Source: Thermoproteota archaeon
GTDB taxonomy: Archaea > Thermoproteota > Thermoprotei_A > Sulfolobales > NBVN01
Direction of reading: 5' to 3'
Assembly (NCBI GenBank): GCA_030550455.1
Contig: JAUQPH010000007.1
Coordinates: 5,600-69,599 of the forward strand
DNA length: 64,000 nt
Part shown: piece after piece, positions 50,389 to 64,000 of the stretch
Numbering within the stretch: position 1 is the first letter of the stretch
Layout of the letters: each line of letters starts with the position of its first letter
Program-made: the position numbers and the translations under genes
The notes under the pieces: generated by a model
Database searches by the model: none
The model's input: only the letters and a program-made list of their open reading frames with translations
What the model was told of the DNA's origin: nothing

Positions 50389-50498
50389 GAGGCTTTTCAA
50401 GTTAGTTAAAAACACACTCACGTACTCAAATAACATTAAAGTCGGGCTCGGCGATACTAGTCGGAAAGTCAACGTAGAAACAAGGTCTCAAACATCTA

Positions 50499-50757: not shown

Positions 50758-51208
50758 GAACTATAGTTAAGCATGATTAAGTCATTAGAGCAGAGCCTTA
50801 GATACATTAATATTGATAATCCATGCAAGTGCTCTACTGTAGTCGGGTTGAACCGTGTGTGGTTTCAGGGGTGTTGTGATAATATCCATGTACTTCGGTG
50901 GGTTTACGCGTAGGTTCGAAATAGGTACTCAGTGGAAGCGAGATTAACTATTGTTTAAACCTGTGGACAGCACTCAACTCGACTTTGATGTTGGGTAATT
51001 GATTGTTTCTCGAGAATCCTTGGAGGTAGAATTGGGGAAACCAGGTTGAGTAACTTGGAGTGGTTTAATGCTTAGTTTCATCACATTAAAACATGACGTG
51101 TTGACTGAGAACACTTGTTCAATTAGGGTTCAATCCGAGATCGTTGTTCCCGAGTTATCAGTGTAGGGTTAAAACTGTGGTATACATGGATACTATTGAA
51201 GTGGTAGT

Positions 51209-51607
51209 ATGCCGGTGAGAGACGAAGTACTCAACTGGTTAGCAGAAGCTCAAGCTGACCTCAGGCATGCTGAAATGAGTATTAGTACAGGAGGATACAA
51301 CTGGGCTTGTTTCATAGCTCAGCAAGCTGCTGAGAAAGCTCTGAAAGCCCTAGTACTCCACGTTCTAGGTGAGTACCCGCGGGGTCACGACCTCGTCAAG
51401 CTCTACCGTAGAGTCAAGGGCTCTACGGCTGTTTCACTTAGTGAGGTTGCACTCGCTAAGCTATCAGCGTACTACACTCTAGCTAGATACCCCAACGCTG
51501 GCTTAGAGAGACCTTCAGAGGAGATCTTGAGAGAACACGCCGAGGAAGCCGTTTCGATCGCCAGAGGTGTACTGGATGAGGTCTCAAAGGCTATTCAAGA
51601 CCCATAG
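51209..51607 (+). CDS. HEPN-domain protein (second HEPN-MNT pair)
   Basis: 132 aa with WACFIAQQAAEKALKAL, PRGHDL and LARYP. Confidence 0.8.
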   Translation: MPVRDEVLNWLAEAQADLRHAEMSISTGGYNWACFIAQQAAEKALKALVLHVLGEYPRGHDLVKLYRRVKGSTAVSLSEVALAKLSAYYTLARYPNAGLERPSEEILREHAEEAVSIARGVLDEVSKAIQDP

Positions 51608-51899
51608 TGACATTGTAGAGATCCTCGGGAGGCTGGCTAGAGAGATCAACGCCACGGTTTACCTGTTTGGAAGCTACGCTAGAGGTGATCACACGCTTGA
51701 AAGCGATGTTGACATAGTAGTTGTATGCGAGTGCTTCAAGAGCATGAACTACCCGAATAGAGTTGCGTTCGTGAGAACAAAACTACCACCCGACATCGGG
51801 TTCGACATAGTAGCCTTAACACCGGAGGAGTTCAAGAGTAGATCGAGCAAGGCGTTCTTCAGAGACGTATCAAAGCACTGGGTAGAGATAAAACCGTAA
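51567..51899 (+). CDS. Minimal nucleotidyltransferase (MNT)
   Basis: 110 aa with LFGSYARGDHTLESDVDIVVV. Overlaps the HEPN gene by 41 nt. Confidence 0.8.
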   Translation: MYWMRSQRLFKTHSDIVEILGRLAREINATVYLFGSYARGDHTLESDVDIVVVCECFKSMNYPNRVAFVRTKLPPDIGFDIVALTPEEFKSRSSKAFFRDVSKHWVEIKP

Positions 51900-52291
51900 A
51901 AGCACGCGGTCACCGGCCTACAGTCACCTCAAGTTTAAGGCTTTCTAGACGAAGAGTCCTCTGCAGCGATATGTACTCACTAGTTTGTAGACCTTGCTAA
52001 ACTTAATCACGTCAAGAGCTCTAAGCATTCTAGAGAGACCTACAAAAACCTAGCACACTAAAACAGTTGCGAACCCCTCTCCCTACCGTGCTTATCCACT
52101 ACGTACTGAAGTATCCTAGCTCTATCCTCTTTACCCAAAGCTTTTAGGTTCAGCCCATCGTACTAAGGCTTCACAGCCTCACTCCCAACATTTTCTCCTA
52201 GTATTATCGTACAGTAATATTAGTTAATCGTTTCACGGTGCTTGCGTGGGGTCTGAAACAATGACTTATAAACCATCACCACGCATGGGAG

Positions 52292-52347
52292 TGGCGCCGG
52301 GGGCGGGATTTGAACCCGCGCGGGGTGTTCCCCCACCGGCTTAGCAG
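52292..52347 (-). tRNA. 3' portion only of a class II tRNA (Ser-like, loop CUGCUAA = anticodon GCU). Probable att site.
   Basis: The reverse complement reads CTGCTAA-GCCGG-T-GGGGGAACACCCC(long variable arm)-GC-GCGGG-TTCAAAT-CCCGC-CCCCGGC-G-CCA. No 5' acceptor, D arm or 5' anticodon-stem strand lies upstream of it. Confidence 0.65.
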
Positions 52348-52384
52348 AGCGAAATCTAGTGAGGAAGTTACCCCTAATGACCGC

Positions 52385-52392
52385 TTTATAAA
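52385..52392. promoter_or_regulatory. Palindromic TATA box (TTTATAAA) between the tRNA fragment and the integrase
   Basis: Its first base is 42 nt upstream of the integrase ATG (52427). On the other strand its near edge is 37 nt upstream of the tRNA-like sequence. Confidence 0.4.
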
Positions 52393-52426
52393 CCCTGCGA
52401 CCCCTACCCATTACTATTGGGGTGCT

Positions 52427-53377
52427 ATGGCAACTCCCATGCTCAACGTACTCCGTATTAAAGATTCGGAAGGAAATATCGTCGTTGAGGTATCAAGTAG
52501 AAGAGATATTAAGTTGCTTGGGGAGCTCTTGAGGAGTCTGGGGGTAACTGTAGCCGGTGGTAAGCGTGAACGATTCATAGAGTTTAATGAGATGTTCATG
52601 GAGTACTTAATAAAGGATAGGGGGCAGCAGGAGAAGACAGCTAAGTGCTACATGAACTACCTTAGACGGCTTGACGGTAAGCCCCTAACCTACGGGACCT
52701 TCCTCGAGATATCTGGTAGTAGGTGGATGGTTAAGTGTGTGAGGCTGTATATAGACTTCCTCGAGAAATCCGGGGAGATATCCGAGGATGAGGCTGAGAG
52801 GCTTAGGAAGATATTTAAGATTAGAAGTGGTGCTAAGATCATTAAGAAATACCACATCGAATACAGCAAGATAATCGAAGTACTGGAGAGAGTTGAGGTA
52901 GGTACTCTCTACTGGCTAGTCTTAAGAGTACTCTACTTTAGTGGTGCTAGACTGAGTGAAGTAGTCAAGATGATCCAGGATTTTGATGAGAGAGAGCTAA
53001 CCTGCTTTCAAGACAGGGGCTTCTGCCGCTATTACCTAGTGTGGAGTAGGGGTAAGAAGAGGTGTGAGTGGATCTACTTCCCAGCAACACTTACTGAATA
53101 TCTCAAGATGTGGAGGGGGAAGATCGGGAAGTACGATACTGTGAGGGATACTCTCTACGACTACTACGGCGTTAAGGTGAAAGACTTTCGAAAGCTGTTC
53201 TATCGAGTATGTCGGGATGTAGGGGTTGAGGGAGCGATTTGCGACTTCTACCAATCAAGAATATCGGGTTTAAGCATAGGTGACCTACACTATGACGACA
53301 TAGTGACTCGAGCAGACAAGCAGTACACTGAGCTAGCCGCCCGACTGAGTAAACTACTAGAGAGGGGTAGTAGTTGA
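52427..53377 (+). CDS. int: Tyrosine recombinase / integrase (archaeal SSV- or pNOB8-like)
   Basis: Box I-like FSGARLSEVVKM, with C-terminal Tyr candidates in LHYDDIVTRADKQYTEL. It directly abuts a tRNA 3' fragment. The frame stays open upstream to 52265, across the tRNA fragment. Confidence 0.7.
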   Translation: MATPMLNVLRIKDSEGNIVVEVSSRRDIKLLGELLRSLGVTVAGGKRERFIEFNEMFMEYLIKDRGQQEKTAKCYMNYLRRLDGKPLTYGTFLEISGSRWMVKCVRLYIDFLEKSGEISEDEAERLRKIFKIRSGAKIIKKYHIEYSKIIEVLERVEVGTLYWLVLRVLYFSGARLSEVVKMIQDFDERELTCFQDRGFCRYYLVWSRGKKRCEWIYFPATLTEYLKMWRGKIGKYDTVRDTLYDYYGVKVKDFRKLFYRVCRDVGVEGAICDFYQSRISGLSIGDLHYDDIVTRADKQYTELAARLSKLLERGSS

Positions 53378-53378
53378 G

Positions 53379-53993
53379 ATGAGCACTAACTCCGGTAGGA
53401 CATACTCTAGAAAGTTTAGAGGTGTTTTAATGCCTGTAGTATGTAGATCTGGTGGTTTTACAGTCTTAGTGAAGCCGTATAACATATTTAATGTAGTCTT
53501 CGTACCGAAAGATGATGTATTACACTACTTCAGCATCTCCAACCCACGCAAGTGTTGTGAAGACATCTACTCAATTACTCCACCCTACGGCCGCGGGAGA
53601 CGCGACACGTTTTTCGGAAGCTATAGACTGGAGGTAGAGAGAATCCCGCTAGTAACTCTCGACAACATTGTCTTGAGGAAGAGCAGTACTCATCAGTGGT
53701 ACTCGAGGGGTTCTGTTAGAAGGGTGAACGTGTGGTTGGATTCGAAAGAGTTGCTGGATAGGGCTGTACCTATCGATAAGTCTTACTTAGCTCGGCTGAG
53801 GCTGAGATTACCCTGCTACGTGTACGGGTTAAGCATCTTCGGTAGGACGATCACGGTGGTATGGAATAATGAGGTGCGTAGTAGGTGGCACTATGCTGGA
53901 GCTGTAAGGTCTTGCAGGAACGTGAGGGTCTTCCTCCTCTACGACTACCTACCTATTATCGCAGAAGGTGGCTCTCCCGATGGTAAGATATAG
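53379..53993 (+). CDS. Element ORF, hypothetical (Arg/Tyr/Cys-rich)
   Basis: 204 aa. Starts 2 nt after the integrase stop. No recognisable domain. Contains RLRLPCYVYG. Confidence 0.5.
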   Translation: MSTNSGRTYSRKFRGVLMPVVCRSGGFTVLVKPYNIFNVVFVPKDDVLHYFSISNPRKCCEDIYSITPPYGRGRRDTFFGSYRLEVERIPLVTLDNIVLRKSSTHQWYSRGSVRRVNVWLDSKELLDRAVPIDKSYLARLRLRLPCYVYGLSIFGRTITVVWNNEVRSRWHYAGAVRSCRNVRVFLLYDYLPIIAEGGSPDGKI

Positions 53994-54672
53994 TCAGGAG
54001 ATGACGAATCTAGTCTACTTTAAAATTGAGAGGACGGATCCAGTAATTACTCGGCTAAGGGGTAGGAGGTACCACAGGACATACGGAATAGTGTTAAGTA
54101 GCTTTAGAGTAGTTGAAGTGTTAGTTCCACTAAACCTTCATGGTCAGATACCGCTAGATCGCGGTAAGTATGTCTACTTTACTAAGTGTAGTAATCAGTG
54201 GACAATAGTTAGGAAGCTATATAGAGTATGTGAGATACACGACGTAGAGTGTCTAGAGAAAGTAACTAGTAAGAAGAGTACCATACCGGATAGACTCTAC
54301 ATCAGACTAGCAACGTGGGAGGATATAAAACACTACATCCAGTGGAGTAAGATACCCTACCTACTAAGGGAGAACCAACTACGAGACCTATACCTACTAG
54401 TACTATACTACAATAAAGGAAGAGGAATCGGGAGATACAAACTCGACATAGACCTCATATACGTACCACGAAACTGCGCACTCAAATTCGTCGAAACCGA
54501 GCAAAACATGTTCATCGACGGCATATACTACTCCTACAACACCTACCTAGTCTTTACCAACATTCCATACGTCGGACTAACCTACAGCAAAGTAGTAAAA
54601 GCAATTAAGAAAGTAAAGAACTGCTGGCGAACCATGAGAAGCAACCCCAATAGAAAGACCTCTTTGAACTGA
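53968..54672 (+). CDS. Element ORF, hypothetical
   Basis: 234 aa overlapping the previous ORF. Basic and Tyr-rich, with no recognisable domain. Confidence 0.5.
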   Translation: MALPMVRYSQEMTNLVYFKIERTDPVITRLRGRRYHRTYGIVLSSFRVVEVLVPLNLHGQIPLDRGKYVYFTKCSNQWTIVRKLYRVCEIHDVECLEKVTSKKSTIPDRLYIRLATWEDIKHYIQWSKIPYLLRENQLRDLYLLVLYYNKGRGIGRYKLDIDLIYVPRNCALKFVETEQNMFIDGIYYSYNTYLVFTNIPYVGLTYSKVVKAIKKVKNCWRTMRSNPNRKTSLN

Positions 54673-54905
54673 TGAGAGGCGATCTAATGAAGGTCTTTGA
54701 ACTGATTAAAACAGCTAAAACCACAAACACAAATCAACAACCAAACCCCTACAAAAACGTGGTGGGGTTTGGATTCGTAGGTGTTAGTAGTGTTTTATTG
54801 AGTGTGAGTATAGATATAATATTAATCTATAATATAATAATAATATTTGTAAACATAATTGTAATAAATGAGTTCATGAGGCTCTGCGGGCTTCGGGCTA
54901 CCTAG
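54672..54905 (+). CDS. Small hydrophobic ORF (doubtful coding)
   Basis: 77 aa. The hydrophobic Ile/Asn-rich half is encoded by an extremely AT-rich tract (54809-54872) that could instead be a promoter or an unwinding element. Confidence 0.3.
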   Translation: MRGDLMKVFELIKTAKTTNTNQQPNPYKNVVGFGFVGVSSVLLSVSIDIILIYNIIIIFVNIIVINEFMRLCGLRAT

Positions 54906-54918
54906 GGGGGTTGTTTGT

Positions 54919-55899
54919 ATGGTTAAAGTTCATCGGTTGGTGAGTATTAGGCCTAACATAGTTGGGTGTTGGGAGGCTGATAGTAGTTATATAGCTTCCA
55001 AGCTACGTAGTTCGGAGAAGCTCTACTTCTGCTTTAGAGAAGACTATAGAGTTGTAGTATTGAAGAGAAAGCCTAAGTATATAGTTCCTACTAAGGTGTA
55101 CCCACCTAAAGACCTGTGTATCTCATCGCCTGTAACAAGTAGTTCTATAGGTTTCCTTCAGAAGCTTAAGCTACCCTGTTACATACACGCTCCATGCATC
55201 TGCTTCTGCTATCAGGAGGAAGGTCAAACTCCATCCACTAGACTATGCGATGAAGAAGGCAACTGCCATTACGAGCCGCAGGATCTGTACTGCGAATACG
55301 TCAACGCATATGACCTCGTGAACATACTTATCTACCCAACCAATATAGTGAGGAACATCAAGATCTACAGATACTTCGTGACTATAGGTGAGTCTAAAGC
55401 ATACGTCGCACCTTACCCTCTAACTATGAACATGAGTATTGCGTTTGAGTATGTGCTTAAGTCAAGTAGGGGAGAGCTCGAAGACTACTATAAGAAGTTG
55501 TTGAAAAAATACGGTGGTAACATACCCGACGCAGTAAACTTCTTCGGTAGCTACCTACCGATCGATGCCTCAGTAGTATACCCCGAAGGCGTTCCCGAAG
55601 GTGTTGAACTATACATGAACCGATACGTCTTCGTCAATCCCTGCTCGAAGACACTAGCATTCAATTTCTACCCCATAGGGTCGAACAAGTTTCACGCAGT
55701 AGTAATTGCGTGGTTCGACTCTGATGATAGAGCTTATAGAGTAGCTAGAGTAGCTTGGGAGATAAGGAAGGATGTAACAGTACCCTACCTCCAATTCCTT
55801 AGGAAGGTGAGGAGAGGTAGAGACTTCATTAGCTCACAGCTACTCACATCTGTGGAAGACCTACTCGACCTAGGCGAGTCTAATGACGAGGAGTTCTAG
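54919..55899 (+). CDS. Element ORF, hypothetical Cys-rich protein
   Basis: 326 aa with the Cys cluster KLKLPCYIHAPCICFCYQEEGQTPSTRLCDEEGNCHYEPQDLYC and an acidic C-terminus. Confidence 0.55.
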   Translation: MVKVHRLVSIRPNIVGCWEADSSYIASKLRSSEKLYFCFREDYRVVVLKRKPKYIVPTKVYPPKDLCISSPVTSSSIGFLQKLKLPCYIHAPCICFCYQEEGQTPSTRLCDEEGNCHYEPQDLYCEYVNAYDLVNILIYPTNIVRNIKIYRYFVTIGESKAYVAPYPLTMNMSIAFEYVLKSSRGELEDYYKKLLKKYGGNIPDAVNFFGSYLPIDASVVYPEGVPEGVELYMNRYVFVNPCSKTLAFNFYPIGSNKFHAVVIAWFDSDDRAYRVARVAWEIRKDVTVPYLQFLRKVRRGRDFISSQLLTSVEDLLDLGESNDEEF

Positions 55900-55945
55900 A
55901 TAGGGAGAACCGCATGCTTTATATGTACATTACGCAACAAATATA

Positions 55946-56473
55946 TTGGGTGAGAGAGTGAGTACAACCCCCGTAAGCTTTTCAAGTGCGGCACCTATAT
56001 CTAGTATACTCAGACCTGCCTTCAGCGGAGTTCCAAACGCTAAAGCTCTCGTTAAGTACATCATCTCCGTAATCTCGGCAATCAAGCACGGAGGTCATAA
56101 AGTGAGGTTCTACGTAACTGGAGATATAGCGGTTGCGATTAGACCAGCACTCGAGAGGTTAGGTGTTAAGCTCCTACCAGCTCAAGAGTTAAAGCCACCC
56201 TACGTCCTCTTCAAGCTCGAAGACGGGGAGGTCGTTGTTGAGGCTTCAGACGGGGAAGAGGAGTATACCGTAGGTAAGGTGAGTTCCTATGAGTTCATAG
56301 GCTACCTATACGAAACCGTACTCGAGAGACTATACCCCCGTAAGAAGATCACACTAGAGATAGGTGGAGACGAGGGTAGAGAGGGGGAAGGCGAAGAAGA
56401 TGAAGAAGTCATCTACATAGACGAGTACTTTAAGGAAGAAGCAGCAGGATCTCGAGGTAGTGATAAGCACTAG
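55946..56473 (+). CDS. Element ORF, hypothetical with an acidic tail
   Basis: 175 aa with the C-terminal GGDEGREGEGEEDEEVIYIDEYFKEE. Confidence 0.45.
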   Translation: MGERVSTTPVSFSSAAPISSILRPAFSGVPNAKALVKYIISVISAIKHGGHKVRFYVTGDIAVAIRPALERLGVKLLPAQELKPPYVLFKLEDGEVVVEASDGEEEYTVGKVSSYEFIGYLYETVLERLYPRKKITLEIGGDEGREGEGEEDEEVIYIDEYFKEEAAGSRGSDKH

Positions 56474-57084
56474 CTAGACCGCTTATCTGTCGAGGACTCG
56501 TAGCGTGAGGTCGAGGGCTTATAGCGTGGGCAGGCTACACAGAGAAGTGGTTGCTCACTAACCTTCAGGTAGTACACACCACCTACCTCCTCAACACTCA
56601 GCTGAGATATCTCTTCACTCAGCCTCATTACCCCACACAAACCCTTCTCATTCACGTGAACACAGGAGTACTTTCCCTTAACCCTCATCTTAGCAAACTT
56701 TCTGAGAGTGTCAATCTCACGCTCTATAGCAGAAACCCTCCTATGGAGCTCTAACACAGCATCCTGCAAGTTCCCGTGGCCTAACCTCTTAATACTGCCC
56801 AACCGATCCTCTAGCTCCTTAACTTGAGCTAAGAGCCTATCGACCCGACCAAACAAGTCAGCAAACTGCTTTACCCTAGACCTAACCTCTGAGTACCCGG
56901 AGAGAAGCTCCCAAACCTTATACGTACTACAGCCAAGAACTTCAGCAATCTGCCTATACGTATACCCTTTCTCCCTTAACTCAACAGCTTTCTCCCTCAA
57001 CACAGCATCGTCGTACCTCCTCCTAGGCACACAACCACCCAATAACACAGACGCATACGTTATATAAAAATTATTATAAAACAC
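56470..57084 (-). CDS. HTH DNA-binding protein with coiled-coil and Cys-containing C-terminal domains
   Basis: KGYTYRQIAEVLGCSTYKVWELL (HTH), a heptad-like LLAQVKELEDRLGSI...AIEREIDTLRKF, then C..C....C..C. The first ~9 codons are TATA-like (TTTTATAATAATTTTTATATA), so the true start is probably downstream, for example the GTG near 57027. Confidence 0.55.
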   Translation of the reverse strand: MFYNNFYITYASVLLGGCVPRRRYDDAVLREKAVELREKGYTYRQIAEVLGCSTYKVWELLSGYSEVRSRVKQFADLFGRVDRLLAQVKELEDRLGSIKRLGHGNLQDAVLELHRRVSAIEREIDTLRKFAKMRVKGKYSCVHVNEKGLCGVMRLSEEISQLSVEEVGGVYYLKVSEQPLLCVACPRYKPSTSRYESSTDKRSS

Positions 57085-57256
57085 TCATCACACATAGCAC
57101 TATCCGCAGGAGTGAAACAGCGGAGAGGCGGTTATGTGTGGTTTTTTTTGGGTGGTCTCCTCGGTTTTGCGGGTTTGTGCGTGGGTTTGATTGTGTGTTT
57201 CTGCACGTGAGTTACTACCGGTTCTTACGTTAGTCTTTCTTGCTGTTCTTCATGGA

Positions 57257-57319
57257 GTTTTCACAGGTTTTCACACTCGGTTATGCGCGACGTGTACAAT
57301 TCCTTCATAAGTCCTTCAT
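57257..57319 (+). repeat. Short tandem direct repeats (iteron-like)
   Basis: GTTTTCACAG/GTTTTCACAC at 57257-57276. TCCTTCAT occurs twice, at 57301-57308 and 57312-57319. Confidence 0.5.
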
Positions 57320-57767
57320 GCTGTCTTCCTTGGGATTTAAGGAGGTCTTATAGAGGATTTAGTGGTTGGAGTCCGGTGTACTGTACGAGCCTCTGAGAAG
57401 TTTCCTCGAGGTGTACAGTACAGCCGGGTCTACATGATCCAGTCGAGAACGCGGTGATATGTGGAAGCTGTTTGGTTTGTTTTATAACAACTGAGGTAAT
57501 GCGTAGGAATCGGGGTCGAGGTTGAAGGTAGCGAGGTACTTCAAGACGTGGGTAGCCGTGCTTGTCTCGCTTTCCCTGACTCTAGCTACTCTACGGATCG
57601 CGGCAGCTTCTAGCGCTCTCCACTATGCGCTAACCGATGTTCTCGATAGAGCTCTGCGACTCCTCAGCGCTACATCGTTAGCCCCCCTGCTGTTGAGTGG
57701 TACTGAACCAAGTGGTTGGTGAAAGAGCTTGGCTACCAACTCCCGAATCAGCAAACCTAACGAACTC

Positions 57768-57868
57768 ACTGGAAATTTCCAGTAGCTGGAAGCTATCCAC
57801 GTAAGAGAATGAGGGGGTTCTGATGGACTGACCACCATCAACTTTCCAGTAACTGGAAAGTTTCCAGT
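57768..57868. promoter_or_regulatory. Cluster of TTCCAGT half-site palindromes (ORB-like protein-binding array)
   Basis: ACTGGAAATTTCCAGT is a perfect 16-nt palindrome at 57768-57783, followed by AGCTGGAAGC. CTTTCCAGTAACTGGAAAGTTTCCAGT lies at 57842-57868. Further sites are GTTCCAGTGG at 58371-58380 and ACTTTCCAG at 58391-58399. Confidence 0.55.
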
Positions 57869-57954
57869 CTGGCGATAAGCAGAAGGCTGGCGTCGAGTAG
57901 AACCACAGCAGGACCTCAGTCGAGAAAAGAGAGTGAGTAGAGGACAAAGTATTT

Positions 57955-58260
57955 GGGGGTTTGGATTTTATGTGGATTAATGTAGTTTGATGCCAACCCC
58001 TAGCTTCACAAACCTAGGGCACCTTTCATCGGCATCCGCACCATCGGTCTCCACCCATTCAGGGTAACCCTAACCCGCAGCTCACCCTCATATGGTTCAG
58101 GTTCACAGCCGTGGAGAAACCCCCATCCTGGCGTTGGATGCCCCTACCCACTCAGGTCTCCACCACAAACCCGCATCGCGGACGGGCTCATCATCTCACG
58201 GTAACACAACTTACATCAAACCCTACAAACCTTCATGAAACCCGAAACAGCTGCGCGAGG
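57955..58260 (+). repeat. Dispersed repeat family, copy 5 (subfamily B)
   Basis: Starts GGGGTTTGG and ends GAAACAGCTGCGCGAGG. Aligns with the reverse complement of 21450-21725. Confidence 0.7.
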
Positions 58261-59327
58261 TGGTATTGTGGTTCTCGAGTTGAGGAGGAGGAAAGATATA
58301 CGTTATTTTTCGATAATACTCACTATTCTTTCCGCCACCCTACTGTCACTAAACGGTGGCTCACTAAGTAGTTCCAGTGGGTACGAAATCACTTTCCAGC
58401 CCTGCTAATACAACACTTGGGTTTAAACTGATTCTTGGGCACACTCGCTCCAATAGCTTCACGTCTCTCTGCAGGGTTCCCCAGCATTAAAACAGGCTTC
58501 TTTATTCCGAGGAAAGTAGCTTTTTACGGCATCCTACCCGAATCACTCATGACGAGCCTCAAGTTTTCAATAAGGTCAGGAACTCAAAGTAGCCTTGCTG
58601 CGGAACAATCTGTACGTACTCTAAGTTACTCAAAGTCGTGAGAAGCCATATTCTTCCGGTCTCCTACGTGCTCTCGGCGAATAGAGTAACTACCGGAATT
58701 AATATTCTCCTTCGATGCCTCTATGAGGTTCTTCAAAACTCTTTCGATTGCTAATCTTTTAATCTTAAAGTTTATATGAAAACGCAACTCTATCAGCTAA
58801 GCAGCAACAAAGAGCTTCAGTCTATCTTCCCCAATCTGGATAAGAGGCTTTATAATGCATAATAGTAACTCGCAACGTTCTAACCTCCACAAAGACTAGT
58901 TTATCTTCTACAAAACTCCTTTCTTTATTTTAATTAAGACTTAGGAAATAATCTTCTTAACATCACTCATGCAGGAATTAATATGACATGAGAGTTGAAA
59001 ACCTTTGAATGAACGAGTTTAGACAGAGATAGTAGATGACCTAAACGACCATCTTTATTGATTGGTGAGTTAAAAATTCTCTTAGAAGACACTCTAAGAG
59101 GGGTGGTAGCTCGCGAAACAAGCGCTAAAGGTTTAAGAGTATTTCAGGTTAGAGAAGATAATAAGGAGGTTTGTGTGCGTTATTGTGTATTAGATAGATT
59201 CGAAATTCGCAACTCATAATGCAAAGCATATTATCGATTTTGATTGACGCTGTCTAGACACACCCTTTACAGGATTAAGATAAGAACTTTTAACCCCCTA
59301 CTAGTGATATTTCTTGAATGAATAGAC

Positions 59328-60320
59328 TTGAGAAGAGAGGTGGTAATTAGATTGAAAGGGAAAATTCTAGTTACCGGTGGCGCAGGATTTATTGGTAGTC
59401 ACTTGGTTGATAAGTTGATAGGAATGGGCTTTTTTGTCCGAGTCGTAGATAATTTCTCTACAGGGCGTATTGAAAATTTAATGCATCATATAGAAATCAA
59501 AAATTCAGCCTTAGAGCTAATAAGAGGTGACCTTAAGAATCCAAATGATTCATATGAGGTGGTAAAAGGGGTAGATGTAGTGTTTCATTTCGCAGCCAAT
59601 CCTGAAGTAAAAGTTTCTACAATAAGTCCTAAGACACATTACAACGAAAATATCTTATCTACGTTTAATTTGCTCGAAGCAATGAGAGAACTTGAGGTTA
59701 AGGAGCTAGTTTTTGCCTCATCTAGTTCAGTCTATGGAGAACCAGACGTCATTCCTGTGGATGAGAACCATCGTGTGGCACCAATCTCAGTTTACGGAGC
59801 AACGAAAGCAGCCTGCGAAAACCTGATTCATGCGTATTCCCGGCTATATGGAATCAGATGCGTAATTTTAAGATACGCAAATGTTGTCGGTCCCAGATTG
59901 AGGCATGGAGTAATCTTTGATCTACTAATGAAGCTAGCTAAAAACCGAGGAAAGTTAGAGGTTCTCGGCGATGGTACACAAATTAGGAGTTATGTGTATA
60001 TAGATGATGCAGTAGAGGCAACCATAATTGCATGGAGAAGTGGAACTAAAAATTATGACGTATACAATGTAGCTTCTGTTGACTGGATTGACGTGAGGAC
60101 CGTTGTCGACATAATACTAAACGAGTTAAATATCACGAATTTATCAATAGAATACAAACCAACATTGCATGGAGTTGGTTGGCCCGGCGATGTAAAGAGA
60201 ATAGCGTTAGATATCAAAAAGCTGAAGGAACTCGGTTTTAAACCCAGTTTAAACAGCGTTGAAGCAGTTAGAAGAACCGTGCGACACTTAATCCAGGAGT
60301 TAAATCTAAGGTTTGCATAA
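59328..60320 (+). CDS. NAD-dependent sugar epimerase/dehydratase (UDP-glucose 4-epimerase family)
   Basis: VTGGAGFIGSHL Rossmann motif and the YGATK catalytic motif. The start may be the TTG at 59352. Confidence 0.85.
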   Translation: MRREVVIRLKGKILVTGGAGFIGSHLVDKLIGMGFFVRVVDNFSTGRIENLMHHIEIKNSALELIRGDLKNPNDSYEVVKGVDVVFHFAANPEVKVSTISPKTHYNENILSTFNLLEAMRELEVKELVFASSSSVYGEPDVIPVDENHRVAPISVYGATKAACENLIHAYSRLYGIRCVILRYANVVGPRLRHGVIFDLLMKLAKNRGKLEVLGDGTQIRSYVYIDDAVEATIIAWRSGTKNYDVYNVASVDWIDVRTVVDIILNELNITNLSIEYKPTLHGVGWPGDVKRIALDIKKLKELGFKPSLNSVEAVRRTVRHLIQELNLRFA

Positions 60321-60333
60321 GGCGTGACTGCTT

Positions 60334-61437
60334 ATGTCAGTACATGGGTATAAAGTGCTTTTTGATAGTACTCGAAAGAAGCACGTTCATGATAATGCTG
60401 TCATAATATCCTTGCCTGCAGTAAGAGAAGAGAAAACCATTGGAAATGTTGTAAGGAAAATAAGAGAGCAGTTGGGGGATAAGGCGTATATAGTAGTATG
60501 TGTTAAAGATGAGGAAGATCCAACAGTAAAAGCTGCATTAGAGAGCGGTGTTGACGCCATAGTACTTCAGCCGAAACGGGGTTATGGTCTGGCACATTTA
60601 ACGGCAATGCACTATGGAAGATCAAGAATACCAAATGCTAAAACTATAGTGATGGTTGATGCTGATGATACCTATGATCTAAGTAGGTTACATGAAATGG
60701 TCGAGCTCTCATTAAGGCATAGAGCCCTCGTCATCGGTAATAGATTAGAGAAAAAACCTAGTAGGAACGCTATGCCAACATTGAATTATCTGGGCAACAA
60801 AATATTATCCTTGATATTTAGAATACTCTTTACGAAGCATATCCCTGATACGCAGTCAGGACTCAAAGTGTTTCCCGCAGATTTATTAGAGCACCTTAGT
60901 ACAAACGGTATGGAGTTTTCCACAGAGGTCATAGTTGCTTCTCTAAAATCAGGTATTCCGATATATTCTGTTCCAATAAATTATTACCCTCGACTCGGTT
61001 CACCAAGTAAGTTAAGAAGATTCAGGGATTTTATGAGAATATTATGGTTTATATTTAGAGAAAGTATCACAAGATTTATGCTTAGTGGAGTCTTATCTCT
61101 ACTTATTGCTCAAGTAATACTTTTGATACTCCTAACTATTGGTTTAGAAAAACTACCCTCTCTAATTTTATCTAGTGAGGTATCCATATGGCTAGGCTTC
61201 ATGATTAATGATAGATATTATAATTTCCTGCAGGATAAAGACTCGTATAGAGACTTTATATGGCGCGGCCTCAAGTACAACAGCATCTATGTTTTCTCAA
61301 TTATTTTAGCCTCTGGCATCGCATTACTTATTCATAATTGTGTTGATCTTCACTTGGTTTTAGCTAACTTTATTGCGTCTATCATGATATTTCCGTTGAA
61401 CTATTTTATAAATATACGTTTGACGTGGAATTGGTGA
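60334..61437 (+). CDS. Family 2 glycosyltransferase fused to a GtrA-like membrane domain
   Basis: GT-A fold with VMVDADDTYD (DxD). The C-terminal ~120 aa have four TM helices of GtrA type. Confidence 0.8.
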   Translation: MSVHGYKVLFDSTRKKHVHDNAVIISLPAVREEKTIGNVVRKIREQLGDKAYIVVCVKDEEDPTVKAALESGVDAIVLQPKRGYGLAHLTAMHYGRSRIPNAKTIVMVDADDTYDLSRLHEMVELSLRHRALVIGNRLEKKPSRNAMPTLNYLGNKILSLIFRILFTKHIPDTQSGLKVFPADLLEHLSTNGMEFSTEVIVASLKSGIPIYSVPINYYPRLGSPSKLRRFRDFMRILWFIFRESITRFMLSGVLSLLIAQVILLILLTIGLEKLPSLILSSEVSIWLGFMINDRYYNFLQDKDSYRDFIWRGLKYNSIYVFSIILASGIALLIHNCVDLHLVLANFIASIMIFPLNYFINIRLTWNW

Positions 61438-62553
61438 TTGATGTTGAGGGTAGCTTTCGTTACTGAGCTATTCCCACCGCATGTAGGGGGGCAAGAGTTT
61501 CGCTTTTCTCAGTTTGCTAAGTTACTCATCAGCAAGGGGTGGAGCGTTGACGTTTACACTATTAAACATCAAAGAAGCCTACCCGAATATGAGAGGTTGG
61601 ACAAAATTTCTATCTATAGATATATAACGTTGACAGATTACGTTAAGCCAGGATCGCGGGCCCCTATTCCACTATTGAAATATATTATTAAAACAAGGAA
61701 GCTGATAGAAACGATCCATACAGAGTATGATGTTCTTCTCGTGAATGAGATGCCCATATTACATCTATATGCTATTCCTAGATATGATAACTTAGTCGTA
61801 GACGTCTGCGAGGTTCATAGCAAAGGCTTACTGAGAATAATGACCAATAATCCGATGAAGCATTTAAAACATGCCATAGCCGTGAGCGATTTTATAGGGG
61901 AATGGTTGAAAAAAATCAATAAAGAAGCTAAAGTTGAAACCATTAGAACCCCTTTAAAAATATCTGAGTACTTTTCAAATCCGGACAAGAAAGAACCTTA
62001 TACTATTCTGTACGTAGGCAGATTAGTCCCTCATAAGAACGTTTTGAACTTAGCGAAAGCAGTAATTAAGATTAGAACGAGCAATGATAAACTCAGATGG
62101 AGATTAATTGTTGTGGGGAGTGGAGAAAGGTATTTAGAAAATTTAATTAGTAAATTATCTGAGAGATATGAGTTTATTGAATACTTGGGGTACGTAAGAG
62201 AAGGCGAGAAGAGGGAACTCTTTAAAAGAGCTTGGCTTTTTGCCATTCCAAGTATAAGAGAAGGATTCCCTAATAGTGTGGCTGAGGCTGTAGCATCTAG
62301 CACGCCTGTGCTTGTGGTTAAATGTCCTAATAGTGGACTATGGTATGAAGTCTTAAAGTATAGAATCGGAAAGGTCTGCAGCGATGCGAGCTCCGAGTAT
62401 TTGGCCAGATGTCTTGCGGATATCGACGAAGATACGTATTTTAGATATGTTGAAGGCACATATAAACTGCGTAGAGAATTTGATGAATCATATGTATATG
62501 CGAAACTATCGTTTTTCCTAACTAAGGTGGTTAATCATGAGAGTTTCGAATAA
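61438..62553 (+). CDS. Family 4 (GT-B) glycosyltransferase
   Basis: Motif PSIREGFPNSVAEAVASSTPVLV. Confidence 0.8.
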   Translation: MMLRVAFVTELFPPHVGGQEFRFSQFAKLLISKGWSVDVYTIKHQRSLPEYERLDKISIYRYITLTDYVKPGSRAPIPLLKYIIKTRKLIETIHTEYDVLLVNEMPILHLYAIPRYDNLVVDVCEVHSKGLLRIMTNNPMKHLKHAIAVSDFIGEWLKKINKEAKVETIRTPLKISEYFSNPDKKEPYTILYVGRLVPHKNVLNLAKAVIKIRTSNDKLRWRLIVVGSGERYLENLISKLSERYEFIEYLGYVREGEKRELFKRAWLFAIPSIREGFPNSVAEAVASSTPVLVVKCPNSGLWYEVLKYRIGKVCSDASSEYLARCLADIDEDTYFRYVEGTYKLRREFDESYVYAKLSFFLTKVVNHESFE

Positions 62554-64000
62554 CATTTTAGAAAAACACCTTATATTTACCATATTCATCAGTTTTGTCT
62601 CAATCGTTATCATATATCCCGTTATGAGAAAAGTAGTCAATGGTGAAGTTTTTGGCGGTGATGTTGGACAGTACTTAATATCAGCATATGCCATTGTTCA
62701 CGGCAGAAACTTTGTTTATAACTACCCCTACCCACTTATATCGTTGATATATGTACCGATTGTGCTACTACTTAAAGATTCATTTATTCAATACGTTATA
62801 GGTTGTCTTCTCGGGCCTATTTTGATGATTTTGCTTGTGGTAGCAACATACTTATCTATAACATCTCTAATAAACGATAAAAATTACATAAAAAATAGCA
62901 TAGCATCGACATTGGGAAGCGTTCCAGTGGCTTTTTTCCCATTATACTTAGATGCTATAGGTTGGGGCGGACAAGCTCAGTTCCTCGGATTAATCTTAGG
63001 AATGATTTTGATCAGGTTTTATATAGAGAGGAAATCTATACACTTTATGATAACCAGCATACTTCTAGTTTTGGCTCACCCGTGGACAGCATCATACTTT
63101 ATATTAGCTCTGACATTGCATAAACTGATACTACTCTGTATAGAGGTAAAGAACGCTATAATTAAGAAAAAGTATATAATCCTTAACATGCTCAAGTTTA
63201 CTTTATTCCCTCTGTTAACATTTTTAATCCTCTCTTATTTTCCTCTAGGGAAAGAGGATATGGTGGGAATACCTATCAATAATGTTCCAGTTATTAAAGC
63301 CATAATGAAGGGGGAACTCGATCTCATCTCGTTTATTAGACGCTTGACTTTTCCTACGGAGACCGTTTTACTATTTTTATCTATCTCATTTTTTATATTC
63401 TTATTTTCAAGGTTATCATCATTAAGTAAAAGAAATGGCGATCAAAGCATGTCAAGCTATAGTAATGTTTTGCTTATAAGACTGTTATTAATTTTATCAT
63501 TTCTCTACATTGTTATATGTCCGGCACAATATGCTGATAGGGGTTTCTACATTATTCCAATACCTCTTTCGCTTCATCTGGGTAGAGCGTTATCAGATTA
63601 TATGAGCAAGTTACAGCCTTCTCACATCGATTTTAAGGGAGACAAGGCATCAAGAGCATTTCTCCTACTGTTCCTATCGATTTTCTTTCTAGGATCTTAC
63701 AGTGGGGGCGCTATAATGTATTATCCATCGAGTCTTAGTTATTATGGTATTCCTAGCGACTTATTTTACATGAACAACATACTTGGAGAAGTTAATGATA
63801 ACGTGCTGCTTATAACCCCTCATGCTCTCTGGTTTCCTGCCTCAGGTATACTAAAGACAAACGTTTTCGTAACTTCCCAGCCAGTATGGTTCATCCAGAA
63901 AAAACAAATAGAGTATGTCGAGTACTCTAATATGTTAGCATGGGGTAATTTATTTCTTAGATGTAATAGGGTTGTAGTAGTTGACTCTCAGCCTTTGTGG
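62537..64000 (+). CDS. Large polytopic membrane protein, partial (runs off the window). Possible glycan polymerase or oligosaccharyltransferase-like protein.
   Basis: I read the frame from the ATG at 62537 to 64000 (488 codons) and saw no stop. At least 10 hydrophobic segments. It is not in the supplied ORF track, presumably because no stop falls inside the window. Confidence 0.55.
   Translation, partial: MRVSNNILEKHLIFTIFISFVSIVIIYPVMRKVVNGEVFGGDVGQYLISAYAIVHGRNFVYNYPYPLISLIYVPIVLLLKDSFIQYVIGCLLGPILMILLVVATYLSITSLINDKNYIKNSIASTLGSVPVAFFPLYLDAIGWGGQAQFLGLILGMILIRFYIERKSIHFMITSILLVLAHPWTASYFILALTLHKLILLCIEVKNAIIKKKYIILNMLKFTLFPLLTFLILSYFPLGKEDMVGIPINNVPVIKAIMKGELDLISFIRRLTFPTETVLLFLSISFFIFLFSRLSSLSKRNGDQSMSSYSNVLLIRLLLILSFLYIVICPAQYADRGFYIIPIPLSLHLGRALSDYMSKLQPSHIDFKGDKASRAFLLLFLSIFFLGSYSGGAIMYYPSSLSYYGIPSDLFYMNNILGEVNDNVLLITPHALWFPASGILKTNVFVTSQPVWFIQKKQIEYVEYSNMLAWGNLFLRCNRVVVVDSQPLW

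What the first reader, a model, noticed from the sequence alone, without database searches (positions are those of the whole stretch)
52292..57500. Integrated element of unknown type: tRNA 3' fragment, integrase, then an orphan ORF block
A 56-nt 3' portion of a class II tRNA ends exactly where a tyrosine integrase gene begins. Five co-oriented, overlapping or abutting ORFs (53379-56473) follow. None has a motif I recognise: no capsid, Rep, MCM, primase or packaging ATPase signature. A convergent HTH gene and a short-direct-repeat region come next.

The integrase frame stays open through the whole tRNA fragment (from 52265). That is the arrangement left when an SSV-type integrase gene is split by integration. 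I found no second att copy or intact tRNA up to 64000. The element is therefore either longer than 11.7 kb, taking in the glycosylation island, or truncated.
Basis: partly seen in the sequence, partly recalled or inferred. Interest (0 to 1): 0.75.

Follow-up and report, generated by a model that had tools for sequence, protein, structure and literature searches.

The report
Integrated archaeal element with split integrase
This is a 13.7-kb mobile element inserted into a serine tRNA gene of a hot-spring archaeon by a self-splitting ("suicidal") SSV-type integrase, a known integration mechanism, carrying unknown genes plus a sugar-modification gene cluster, and nearly identical copies sit in two different host genomes.

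Summary
Window 52288-52347 is an exact 60-nt copy of the 3' part of tRNA-Ser(GCU), on the minus strand. Its twin lies inside an intact tRNA-Ser(GCU) about 1.9 kb past the window end (window-equivalent 65930-65989).

Next to that tRNA is a 54-codon int(N). It reads in frame through att into the int(C) at 52348-53377. The rebuilt 396-aa protein aligns end to end with contiguous integrases of other elements and of fuselloviruses. It carries the SSV-type R..KxxR..Y residues.

The element is therefore 13.7 kb and includes the glycosylation island. A second host lineage (39% GC, against 45% here) carries both ends of the same element at 99% identity or more, at its own tRNA-Ser(GCU). Sister genomes of that host show the empty site. 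Sequence differences place the crossover in the anticodon stem-loop.

Four of the five ORFs have no detectable relatives. ORF4 belongs to a small uncharacterised family whose predicted fold matches nothing. No capsid, replication or packaging gene was recognised, so virus versus plasmid remains open.

Verdict: a new member of a known kind, of moderate interest.

The parts
52288..52347 (-). attL: an exact 60-nt direct repeat. It is the 3' part of tRNA-Ser(GCU), from the anticodon loop to CCA (52292-52347), plus 4 nt beyond the tRNA end (52288-52291).
   Evidence: Sequence read directly. Exact 60-nt identity with L007 14487-14546, inside the intact tRNA-Ser(GCU).
52265..53377 (+). int(C): the C-terminal 362 codons of a split SSV-type ('suicidal') tyrosine integrase. 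The frame is open from 52265, homology starts at 52289, and gene callers start it at ATG 52427.
   Evidence: PF16795 at E 3.9e-26 and phrog_5127 at E 2.7e-33. SSV1 Int structures 3uxu/4dks/3vcf at E about 3e-6. tblastn places rebuilt-Int residues 35-396 at 52289-53374. R255, K332, R335 and Y369 are invariant in the family alignment.
53379..53993 (+). ORF1: 204 aa, basic (pI 10), no known relatives.
   Evidence: Only one substitution against variant L031.
53968..54672 (+). ORF2: 230-234 aa, basic, no significant relatives. It has a weak, unproven resemblance to the SSV1 F-112 winged-helix protein (motif CE.H..EC).
   Evidence: PDB 2vqc at E 0.24. hhalign probability is only 5.5%.
54672..54905 (+). 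ORF3: 72-77 aa small membrane protein with two adjacent hydrophobic helices.
   Evidence: No similarity to SSV1 VP3.
54919..55899 (+). ORF4: 326 aa, 11 Cys. It belongs to a small uncharacterised family with conserved Cys residues and an AYVAP motif. Its predicted fold matches nothing in PDB or BFVD.
   Evidence: Exhaustive HMMER search found 9 distant full-length relatives plus one fragment, 26-35% identity. Alignment. AF2 pLDDT 70, pTM 0.73. Foldseek found nothing with E below 0.1.
55946..56473 (+). ORF5: 175 aa, acidic C-terminal tail, no relatives found.
56470..57084 (-). Convergent putative regulator: N-terminal HTH, a central region with only sub-threshold coiled-coil-type matches, and a Cys-containing C-terminus. 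The called start gives 186 aa (56470-57030).
   Evidence: PF13384 HTH_23 at E 7.8e-6 and other HTH families. phrog_3910, transcriptional regulator.
57085..59327 (.). A 2.2-kb stretch without convincing ORFs. It contains a fast-evolving segment (57142-57459), a cluster of palindromic TTTCCAGT 8-mers (57768-57868) and the GC step from 46% to 38% near 58400. It is a candidate regulatory or origin region, and this role is inferred.
   Evidence: Divergence from L031 is 4.1% here against 0.26% in the coding block.
59328..60320 (+). Cargo: NAD-dependent sugar epimerase/dehydratase (GalE/RmlB-like).
   Evidence: TIGR01179 at E 1e-53. Precomputed Pfam hits.
60334..61437 (+). Cargo: GT2 glycosyltransferase fused to a GtrA-like membrane domain (AglJ / dolichyl-phosphate hexose transferase-like).
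   Evidence: PF00535 + PF04138. TIGR04182 AglJ at E 1.9e-33. Four hydrophobic segments.
61444..62553 (+). Cargo: GT4 glycosyltransferase (Agl16-like).
   Evidence: PF00534/PF13692. NCBIfam hits.
62537..64000 (+). Cargo: polytopic membrane protein of 752 aa, with at least 8 hydrophobic segments and a C-terminal domain of about 350 aa. It runs to window-equivalent 64795. Off-window after it: about 1 kb, then int(N) at 65829-65989, attR at 65930-65989 and tRNA-Ser(GCU) at 65934-66022.
   Evidence: No Pfam or PDB hit. The AF2 model was too poor to use. int(N), attR and the tRNA.

Best explanation
Window 52288-64000 is the left 11.7 kb of a 13,702-bp integrated mobile genetic element. As a circle it would be 13,642 bp. 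It is inserted in the 3' half of a tRNA-Ser(GCU) gene of an uncultured hot-spring crenarchaeon, named 'Sulfolobales archaeon' in NCBI and close to Desulfurococcaceae/Thermosphaera.

Integration module. The element uses an SSV-type 'suicidal' tyrosine integrase whose attP lies inside its own gene, at codons 35-54.
- In the circular form, a promoter upstream of int(N) would drive a 396-aa integrase (inferred).
- That integrase recombines attP with the tRNA. The crossover maps to the 17-nt anticodon loop/stem segment CTGCTAAGCCGGTGGGG (inferred from sequence differences between att copies).
- Integration splits the gene into int(C), at the left end in the window, and int(N), at the right end 1.9 kb past the window (shown).
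- The element-borne copy restores the 3' half of the tRNA (shown).
- The two att copies are identical over 60 nt. Excision should therefore still be possible, but only with an intact integrase supplied in trans by a related element (from the literature on this family).

Cargo.
(i) A tightly packed operon of five proteins and a convergent HTH regulator. Sequence divergence shows it is under constraint, but its functions are unknown. It presumably handles maintenance, replication or particle formation (inferred).
(ii) A 2.2-kb non-coding region with palindromic 8-mers, a candidate operator or origin (inferred).
(iii) A lower-GC four-gene module: epimerase, Dol-P-hexose-synthase-like GT2-GtrA, GT4 and a polytopic membrane protein. 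It most likely remodels host surface glycans (inferred).

The element has moved recently. Both of its ends, at 99% identity or more, flank the tRNA-Ser(GCU) of a second host with a different GC content. Sister genomes of that host have the empty site.
For: - Exact 60-nt att repeat: window 52288-52347 = L007 14487-14546. An intact tRNA-Ser(GCU) sits at L007 14491-14579.
- int(N) at L007 14386-14546 is in frame with int(C). The rebuilt ORF has no stop codon.
- The rebuilt Int is covered 96-99% by contiguous homologues P0003, P0004, P0005, P0010 and P0011. Its N-terminus is nearly identical to that of P0003. It aligns over residues 3-391 with SSV4, SSV-RH and SSV6 integrases. It also matches the integrases of pSSVi and pT26-2.
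- PF16795 domain. R255..K332xxR335..Y369 are invariant, matching the SSV1-type consensus R..KxxR..Y (PMC8371274).
- No other integrase remnant or att copy lies between the ends.
- Empty site: L018 and L019 have the tRNA-Ser followed directly by Fe-ADH. Occupied: L020, L021 and L022 are identical to L018 up to the tRNA 3' end and then match window 58045/58289/58853-64000 at 99.5-99.9%. L026 matches window 52768-52292 at 98.95%, joined to the host-B Fe-ADH flank.
- The att products in host B are reciprocal. attL keeps the host variable loop and 3' end, while attR carries the element type.
- Host flanks are 44-46% GC (host A) against 38.5-39% (host B). The element's left module is 46% GC and its right module 37.5-39%.
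- The 752-aa cargo protein is 100% identical over 750 aa between the two hosts.
- The coding block diverges 0.26% from JGI variant L031, against 4.1% in the adjacent non-coding DNA.
Against: - No circular (attP) form or contiguous full-length copy of this particular integrase was found. The best full-length relative is 52% identical, and the att-int(C) junction is absent from IMG/VR.
- No replication, capsid or packaging gene could be recognised, so autonomy is unproven.
- In host B only the two ends are assembled. The middle (52768-58045) is missing from those contigs, so identity of the whole element there is inferred.
- The GC step near 58400 shows a mosaic origin. It leaves open that the glycosylation genes were captured secondarily.
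- The roles proposed for the non-coding region and the glycan module rest on annotation and analogy only.
Confidence: 0.9

Rival explanations
1. The element is the provirus of a temperate archaeal virus of a so-far undescribed family. ORF1-5 would encode virion and morphogenesis proteins, with ORF3 as a small hydrophobic capsid or envelope protein. The glycan module would act in lysogenic conversion. This is a more specific version of the best explanation, not a contradiction of it.
For: - At 13.6 kb it is the size of fusellovirus and guttavirus genomes. Fusellovirus integrases align over the full length, and the best-scoring viral hit is the integrase of Aeropyrum provirus APOV1 (31% over the C-terminal 65%).
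- The gene block is compact, co-oriented and constrained.
- ORF3 is a 2-helix membrane protein of 72-77 aa.
- Nearly identical copies occur in hosts of different GC content.
Against: - No similarity of any ORF to any deposited archaeal virus or phage or to IMG/VR contigs.
- ORF3 shows no similarity to SSV1 VP3.
- The ORF4 fold matches no viral structure.
- Only 5-6 candidate genes are available for a whole virion plus replication.
Confidence: 0.3
2. A cryptic integrative plasmid or non-autonomous (satellite-like) element, comparable to pSSVi, pXZ1 or pT26-2-type elements. It would rely on host or helper functions for replication and transfer.
For: - The integrase also matches those of pSSVi and pT26-2.
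- There are no recognisable structural genes.
- There is no large gene of primase, helicase or MCM size in the left module.
- The split integrase needs help in trans for excision (PMC8371274).
Against: - No similarity to any plasmid gene in PLSDB apart from the integrase.
- No Rep, primase or helicase signature.
- How it would move between two genera without transfer genes is unexplained.
Confidence: 0.45
3. Two separate entities: a short integrase element (52288 to about 58400) lying next to a pre-existing glycosylation island. The island could be chromosomal or an older element whose att has decayed.
For: - There is a sharp GC step, 46% to 38%, near 58400.
- Several assemblies break between 57521 and 58853.
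- The island's GC resembles that of host B.
Against: - int(N) lies on the far side of the island, directly at attR, and fits int(C) in frame.
- There is no internal att or integrase remnant.
- The empty site in host B lacks the island as well.
- The island is 99.5-99.9% identical in two hosts whose own DNA does not cross-match.
- The assembly breaks are explained by 99%-identical copies co-occurring in one metagenome.
Confidence: 0.04
4. The 316-aa ORF from ATG 52427 is a complete integrase of the type that stays intact after integration (pNOB8-like). It would have its own TATA-like box at 52385-52393. On this reading the open frame through the tRNA fragment is chance.
For: - Gene callers annotate it this way.
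- A CTTTATAAA box lies about 35 nt upstream of the ATG.
- A GC-rich tRNA segment is poor in stop codons anyway.
Against: - Homology to full-length relatives continues upstream of the ATG through att (tblastn from 52289; alignment).
- The missing 34 N-terminal residues are found at attR.
- The domain is PF16795, the suicidal class (PMC8371274).
Confidence: 0.02
5. The tRNA piece is one half of a split tRNA gene, as known in some Thermoproteota, or the arrangement is an assembly chimera.
For: Split and permuted tRNA genes exist in related archaea (PMC3218864, listed). All the data here are metagenome assemblies.
Against: - An intact tRNA-Ser(GCU) with the same 60 nt lies 13.6 kb away.
- Two independent MAG assemblies give the identical 21-kb arrangement.
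- The host-B junctions carry their own SNPs and reciprocal att variants, which a chimeric join would not produce.
Confidence: 0.01

Closest known systems
SSV-type (type I, 'suicidal') archaeal tyrosine integrases and their integrated elements: SSV1/SSV2 proviruses, pSSVi, and XQ1/XQ2-type elements of Sulfolobales
   Same: - PF16795 catalytic domain.
- R..KxxR..Y signature.
- attP inside the integrase ORF near its 5' end.
- The target is the 3' part of a tRNA gene.
- Integration yields attL-int(C)...int(N)-attR and leaves an intact tRNA.
- The N-terminal 'GR(F/Y)YLY..YVGP' region aligns with fusellovirus integrases.
   Different: - Only about 25% identity to SSV integrases.
- att is 60 nt at codons 35-54, against 44 nt at codons about 64-78 in SSV1.
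- The target is tRNA-Ser(GCU).
- The host is Desulfurococcaceae-like.
- None of the fusellovirus core genes (VP1/VP3, DnaA-like, end-filament protein) is present.
Aeropyrum pernix provirus APOV1 (Guttaviridae, Betaguttavirus), 13.8 kb
   Same: It has the best-scoring viral integrase (31% identity over the catalytic 65%), a similar genome size, and a host from the same broad group (Desulfurococcales).
   Different: No other gene is shared. The APOV1 match does not cover the N-terminal part. No virion evidence exists for the element here.
pT26-2 / pTN3 / TKV-type integrated plasmids of Thermococcales (suicidal integrases)
   Same: The same integrase class and the same split-gene logic. Excision depends on a related intact integrase (PMC8371274).
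   Different: Those hosts are euryarchaeal. The conserved core genes of those plasmids are absent. The element here is smaller.
Closest integrase relatives: uncharacterised elements on 7.7-22 kb contigs binned to Desulfurococcaceae (three) and Archaeoglobaceae (one) MAGs (L011, L012, L013, L015)
   Same: Integrases are 50-52% identical with the same N-terminus. The gene is contiguous in three of them, that is, not integrated.
   Different: Their att-encoded peptide differs, so they use another target tRNA. Their conserved eight-gene ORFan module shares nothing with ORF1-5.
gtrABC glycan-modification modules of temperate enterobacterial phages (analogy only, from my own knowledge)
   Same: A GT2 lipid-phosphate hexose transferase plus a GtrA-type membrane domain plus a large polytopic membrane protein, placed at the att-proximal end of an integrated element.
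   Different: This is an archaeal, dolichol-based system. GT2 and GtrA are fused. An epimerase and a GT4 are present in addition. The polytopic protein has no detectable similarity to GtrC or any GT-C family. The function is untested.

Membership tests
SSV-type (suicidal, type I) archaeal tyrosine integrase | Catalytic domain of the Phage_integr_3 (PF16795) type | tested here: met
   E 3.9e-26, covering 158 of 161 profile positions. SSV1 Int structures 3uxu/4dks/3vcf at E about 3e-6.
SSV-type (suicidal, type I) archaeal tyrosine integrase | Catalytic signature R...KxxR...Y (PMC8371274, section 8) | tested here: met
   R255, K332, R335 and Y369 are invariant in the 11-sequence family alignment A2. 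They align with the corresponding SSV1 residues in the PDB alignment. The consensus is quoted.
SSV-type (suicidal, type I) archaeal tyrosine integrase | Recombination site inside the integrase ORF, so that integration splits the gene into int(N) and int(C) at opposite ends of the element | tested here: met
   int(C) lies at attL and int(N) at attR. They are in frame through the 60-nt att. The rebuilt 396-aa ORF matches contiguous homologues over 96-99% of its length.
SSV-type (suicidal, type I) archaeal tyrosine integrase | Site-specific integration into a tRNA gene, with direct repeats and an intact tRNA left behind | tested here: met
   A 60-nt exact repeat and an intact tRNA-Ser(GCU). Empty versus occupied sites and reciprocal att products in host B.
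SSV-type (suicidal, type I) archaeal tyrosine integrase | Recombinase activity of the intact protein | not testable with these tools
   This needs an in vitro attP x attB assay with the rebuilt protein.
pNOB8-type (type II) archaeal integrase | The gene stays intact after integration, with signature R..YxxR..Y | tested here: not met
   The gene is split. The box II residue is Lys, in KDFRK.
Fuselloviridae provirus | Fusellovirus core genes (VP1/VP3 capsid proteins, DnaA-like protein, end-filament protein, and others) | tested here: not met
   PHROGs gave no hit for ORF1-5. tblastn of ORF1-5 plus the HTH protein against 50,697 phage and archaeal-virus records found nothing. ORF3 against SSV1 VP3 gave no alignment.
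pT26-2 / pTN3 plasmid families | Conserved plasmid core genes next to the suicidal integrase | tested here: not met
   Only the integrase matches pT26-2. ORF1-5 plus the HTH protein have no match in PLSDB.
gtr-like glycan-modification (lysogenic conversion) module | A GT2 lipid-phosphate hexose transferase with a GtrA-type membrane component | tested here: met
   PF00535 + PF04138 on the 367-aa protein. AglJ / Dol-P-hexose transferase models.
gtr-like glycan-modification (lysogenic conversion) module | A type-specific polytopic (GT-C-like) transferase | tested here: inconclusive
   The 752-aa protein has at least 8 hydrophobic segments but no Pfam or PDB match. The AF2 model has pLDDT 41 and is unusable.
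Split tRNA gene half | No intact gene for the same tRNA, and a partner half-gene elsewhere | tested here: not met
   An intact tRNA-Ser(GCU) containing the same 60 nt lies 13.6 kb away.

The most novel reading that the evidence does not exclude
The element is a still-mobile temperate virus or virus-like element of an undescribed family that crosses genus boundaries among hot-spring Desulfurococcaceae-like archaea. Its att-proximal epimerase / GT2-GtrA / GT4 / polytopic-protein module would be an archaeal counterpart of phage gtr 'serotype-conversion' cassettes: it would rewrite the host's S-layer or pilus glycans to block superinfection. ORF1-5, including the novel-fold, Cys-rich ORF4 family, would then be new virion or replication proteins.
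Probability: 0.2. Interest if true: 0.65.

Novelty: new member of a known kind. Interest (0 to 1): 0.4.

Why it matters
The integration machinery is textbook SSV-type, so the mechanism itself is not new. The value lies in four points.

(1) This is a cleanly delimited example of a suicidal-integrase element in an uncultured Desulfurococcaceae-like lineage. [quoted passage not shown] Together they map the crossover to a 17-nt segment without any experiment.

(2) There is evidence of very recent transfer between hosts of 45% and 39% GC. This bears on how elements that destroy their own integrase gene nevertheless spread.

(3) The cargo consists entirely of unknown proteins plus a surface-glycosylation module. 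That makes it a concrete candidate for testing whether archaeal mobile elements remodel host glycans, as converting phages do in bacteria.

(4) The ORF4 family, whose confidently predicted fold has no match, is a defined target for structural and functional work.

Tried and rejected
- A single search with ORF1-5 and the HTH protein concatenated returned nothing, not even the window's own proteins. It is therefore uninformative and cost one of three searches.
- A wrong start coordinate gave a frame error.
- Look-up of the 371-aa TTG-start version of the GT4 gene failed. The 369-aa ATG version worked.
- Alignment A3 was too divergent for locus scans. The narrower A5 found no ORF4 relatives in species-representative genomes or in IMG/VR. 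It found two in JGI metagenomes.
- The integrase family in representative genomes gave only four loci, none sharing cargo.
- ORF1 and ORF2 against IMG/VR: nothing. The integrase against IMG/VR gave one marginal hit.
- The att-int(C) junction was not found in IMG/VR.
- Rfam found nothing in the element at gathering thresholds, and only a chance-level snoRNA hit in the non-coding region.
- There is no tandem-repeat array in 56.9-59.4 kb.
- The sigma-70 promoter scan does not apply to archaea and was not used.
- Foldseek of the ORF4 model against PDB and BFVD gave no match.
- The AF2 model of the N-terminal 487 aa of the 752-aa protein, without an alignment, reached pLDDT 41. It was discarded and no fold search was run on it.
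- The ORF2 to SSV1 F-112 lead (PDB E 0.24, partly aligned to a His tag) was followed up with a five-sequence F-112 profile. hhalign probability was only 5.5%, so it is not accepted.
- ORF3 against SSV1 VP3 gave no alignment.
I worked around this through a cluster look-up.
- I considered and rejected an intron-containing full tRNA at 52288-52420. No sequence complementary to the acceptor 3' strand (GCCGGGG) follows, and neither ARAGORN nor Rfam calls a tRNA there.

Full report
**What the window shows**

On the minus strand, 52347->52292 reads CTGCTAAGCCGGTGGGGGAACACCCCGCGCGGGTTCAAATCCCGCCCCCGGCGCCA. This runs from the anticodon loop of a tRNA-Ser(GCU) through the 3' strand of the anticodon stem, a long variable arm, the T arm and the acceptor 3' strand to CCA. 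The sequence 5' of the anticodon loop (GATTTCGCT) cannot pair with the anticodon stem, so this is a 3' fragment and not a gene. ARAGORN and Rfam call only tRNA-Gly at 42308-42386 in the window.

The plus-strand frame through the fragment is open from 52265 to the stop at 53377. Its C-terminal half matches PF16795 'archaeal phage integrase' at E 3.9e-26 and phrog_5127 at E 2.7e-33. Five co-oriented, abutting or overlapping ORFs follow (53379-56473), then a convergent HTH gene at 56470-57084. The only weak item is the 'short-direct-repeat region', discussed below.

**The other end of the element**

The 326-aa ORF4 located the source record: contig JAWBKL010000002.1 of MAG GCA_038831605.1, with the window reversed relative to the record. 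A look-up anchored on the GT4 gene returned 21 kb that extends 8.5 kb past the window (L007 = window 51444-72553).

- blastn found a second copy of the tRNA fragment at L007 14483-14546.
- ARAGORN calls an intact tRNA-Ser(GCU) at L007 14491-14579(-), which is window-equivalent 65934-66022.
- The shared sequence is an exact 60-mer: 52288-52347 = 65930-65989.

The element is thus 13,702 bp with both att copies, or 13,642 bp as a circle. It includes the glycosylation genes. A second MAG (GCA_038831375.1, L006) has the identical arrangement.

Directly left of attR, in the same orientation as int(C), an ORF reads ...MPSTWRVKVVKGRFYLYHGDKYVGPVEDIVGVYEEWRRGRDLNPRGVFPHRLS through att. Joining L007 14386-14546 to window 52348-53377 gives an uninterrupted 396-codon gene. 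A TTTTTATA box lies about 35 nt upstream of its ATG.

- A database search with this rebuilt protein found the window's own 316-aa fragment. It also found contiguous full-length relatives (P0003 423 aa, P0004, P0005, P0010, P0011) covering 96-99% of the query.
- In the alignment, the first 34 residues are nearly identical to P0003, and the att-encoded segment aligns as well.
- tblastn places residues 1-57 at attR and residues 35-396 at attL. Nothing else in between reaches significance.
- Fusellovirus integrases (SSV4, SSV-RH, SSV6, SSV3) align with residues 3-391 at about 25% identity. The APOV1, pSSVi and pT26-2 integrases also match.
- R255, K332, R335 and Y369 are invariant. They correspond to the SSV1-type R..KxxR..Y consensus (PMC8371274).

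The gene callers' 316-aa 'integrase' from ATG 52427 is therefore int(C). The TATA-like CTTTATAAA at 52385-52393 does not make it a complete gene. att occupies codons 35-54. In SSV1 the annotated 44-bp site lies at about codons 64-78.

**Natural empty site, second host, and crossover region**

Contigs from other MAGs carry the right part of the element at 99.1-99.9% identity, but with a different sequence on the 5' side of the tRNA (L008, L009). Using the PolB gene of that flank as an anchor gave two kinds of locus.

- Empty: L018 and L019 have PolB-Toprim-Fer4-tRNA-Ser(GCU) followed directly by Fe-ADH.
- Occupied: L020, L021 and L022 are identical up to the 3' end of the tRNA (L018 1-14103 = L021 1-14104, 99.99%). 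They then continue into the element, matching window 58045/58289/58853-64000.

The contig that carries Fe-ADH in the occupied assembly GCA_038879735.1 ends with 476 nt that match window 52768-52292 at 98.95%. That stretch is int(C) plus attL, and it is fused to the host-B flank. Both junctions therefore exist in host B.

The att copies differ in an informative way.

- The empty-site tRNA and host-B attL have the variable loop GGGGACACCCCC and the 3' end GGCGTCA.
- Host-B attR has GGGGGACAACCCC and GGCGCCACTCC, which is the element type.

These are the reciprocal products expected from site-specific recombination. They place strand exchange within CTGCTAAGCCGGTGGGG, the anticodon loop and 3' stem. 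The host-B copies carry their own SNPs, which excludes a chimeric assembly through the shared tRNA sequence.

Host-A flanks are 44-46% GC and host-B flanks 38.5-39%. The two sets of flanks share no DNA similarity, and the only protein-level matches between them are two weak ones (30% and 35% identity). The 752-aa cargo protein, in contrast, is 100% identical over 750 residues. This is a recent transfer between clearly different hosts. NCBI names both 'Sulfolobales archaeon'. Their cluster mates are named Thermosphaera sp. and Desulfurococcaceae archaeon. L009 may represent a third context, but only 48 nt of its flank are available.

**The cargo**

ORF1-5:
- ORF1 (204 aa) and ORF2 (230-234 aa) are basic.
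- ORF3 (72-77 aa) has two adjacent hydrophobic helices.
- ORF4 (326 aa) has 11 cysteines.
- ORF5 (175 aa) has an acidic tail.

None of them matches Pfam, PHROGs, NCBIfam, PADLOC or PDB sequences. None matches any deposited phage, archaeal-virus or plasmid genome, and the three queried against IMG/VR (ORF1, ORF2 and the ORF4 family) match nothing there.

ORF4:
- An exhaustive HMMER search over 1.8 billion representatives found nine distant full-length relatives plus one fragment, at 26-35% identity.
- The relatives share conserved Cys residues and an AYVAP motif.
- An AF2 model built with this alignment has pLDDT 70 and pTM 0.73. It has no Foldseek match in PDB or BFVD.
- In three unrelated contigs (GC 35-63%) the ORF4 relative is followed by a 900-980-aa protein with Walker A, DEYD, SAT and QxxGRxxR motifs. 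In two of them a TBP gene lies upstream. The element here has no such partner.

Constraint on the block:
- A JGI metagenome contig (L031) is a 99.4% variant of 52329-57521.
- Of its 32 differences, 12 fall in the 4.6-kb coding block (0.26%; 6 synonymous, 6 not). Eighteen fall in 57142-57459 (4.1%).
- The ORF block is therefore constrained, which supports real genes. The synonymous/non-synonymous counts are too small to say more.

Non-coding region (57085-59327):
- It has no convincing ORF, no Rfam family and no tandem array.
- It holds 5 of the window's 7 TTTCCAGT 8-mers, arranged as palindromes, within 57768-57868.
- The GC step from 46% to 38% lies near 58400.
- I take this region to be a regulatory or origin region. 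That is an inference.

Right module:
- A GalE/RmlB-like epimerase/dehydratase.
- A GT2 fused to a GtrA-type membrane domain (AglJ / Dol-P-hexose transferase-like).
- A GT4.
- A 752-aa polytopic protein with no known family.

**How it most likely works**

Shown:
- Integration occurred by an SSV-type integrase at tRNA-Ser(GCU).
- The integrase gene is split.
- The tRNA is restored.
- The element moved recently between two hosts.

From the literature on the family (PMC8371274): int(N) and int(C) are inactive on their own. Excision therefore needs an intact, compatible integrase supplied in trans by a related element.

Inferred:
- The left module (ORF1-5, the HTH protein and the palindromes) provides maintenance, replication or particle functions.
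- The right module changes host surface glycans.
- The right module's host-B-like GC suggests it was captured from a low-GC genome before the last transfers. This fits the 'gene capture' idea proposed for archaeal integrases by She and co-workers (my own knowledge).

Whether the element is a provirus, a plasmid or a helper-dependent element cannot be decided from this evidence. I lean slightly towards a cryptic plasmid-like or satellite-like element (0.45) over a provirus of a new family (0.3).

**Comparison and novelty**

All testable defining features of the suicidal SSV-type integration module are met. Membership in Fuselloviridae, in the pT26-2/pTN3 plasmid families, or in the pNOB8 integrase type is not supported.

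The closest integrases (50-52% identity) belong to a separate family of uncharacterised elements from Desulfurococcaceae- and Archaeoglobaceae-labelled MAGs. These share a conserved ORFan module that is unrelated to ORF1-5. In species-representative genomes the integrase subfamily appears only four times, always in Desulfurococcales or Thermoproteota MAGs.

This is a new member of a known kind, with wholly unknown cargo.

**Limits**

- All evidence is from metagenome assemblies.
- The middle of the element is not assembled in host B.
- No circular form was found.
- Only ORF4 received the exhaustive homology search.
- Single-sequence structure prediction failed for the 752-aa protein.

Noticed in passing
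window 46363-51899: The host DNA left of attL is dense in toxin-antitoxin-type genes. There are two HEPN + nucleotidyltransferase pairs (about 46363-47138 and 51209-51899), two PIN genes and a MazE-like gene. Duplicated upstream segments of about 130 nt lie at 45891-46016 and 50499-50623 (79-92% identical).
   Followed up: no
window 42308-42386 (-): tRNA-Gly(GCC) is the only intact tRNA in the window. The TA-rich stretch between it and attL could itself be a variable or defence island.
   Followed up: no
window 57142-57459: This non-coding segment diverges 4.1% from JGI variant L031, against 0.26% in the adjacent coding block. Several independent assemblies end between 57521 and 58853.
   Followed up: partly
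window 57768-57868; also 32373-32400: There is a cluster of five TTTCCAGT/ACTGGAAA 8-mers forming palindromes, including a perfect 11+11 palindrome at 57840-57862. The only other two copies in the window form a direct pair 20 nt apart at 32373 and 32393.
   Followed up: partly
L016 1811-3336; L017 9174-13839; L032 178-4175: ORF4 relatives occur on contigs of 35-63% GC. Each is followed by a 900-980-aa protein with SF2-helicase-like motifs (PPGAGKT, DEYD, TSATG, QAYGRALR) that has no Pfam or PDB match. In two contigs a divergent TBP gene precedes the pair. This is a conserved gene pair of unknown function.
   Followed up: partly
L011 1571-9678; L013 789-8494; L015 395-8284; L012 4417-7751: The elements with the closest integrases form their own family. 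They share a syntenic module of ORFans (about 410, 200, 205, 367, 500, 220 and 125 aa; mostly 60-90% identical between contigs, lower for the two ~200-aa genes) and have no Pfam hits. They are probably an undescribed virus or plasmid family of Desulfurococcaceae-like archaea. No terminal overlaps were found, so circularity is not shown.
   Followed up: partly
window 62537-64000 and L007 11094-13352 versus L008 4250-6643: The polytopic cargo protein is 752 aa in host A and 797 aa in host B. The two are identical for 750 residues and then differ, so an indel or frameshift sits at the extreme C-terminus.
   Followed up: partly
window 54070-54285 (ORF2 residues 31-102): ORF2 shows a weak resemblance to the SSV1 winged-helix protein F-112 (PDB 2vqc), including the same C-E-x-H-x-x-E-C spacing. 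It is not statistically supported (E 0.24; hhalign probability 5.5%).
   Followed up: yes
window 52385-52393: A TATA-like CTTTATAAA box lies between att and the internal ATG (52427) of int(C). It could drive int(C) and the ORF1-5 operon in the integrated state. Two of the 32 differences from L031 lie just downstream of it (52395, 52399).
   Followed up: no
window 58400 (52288-58400 versus 58401-64000): There is a GC step inside the element. The left module is 46% GC (like host A) and the right module 37.5-39% (like host B). This indicates a mosaic origin.
   Followed up: partly
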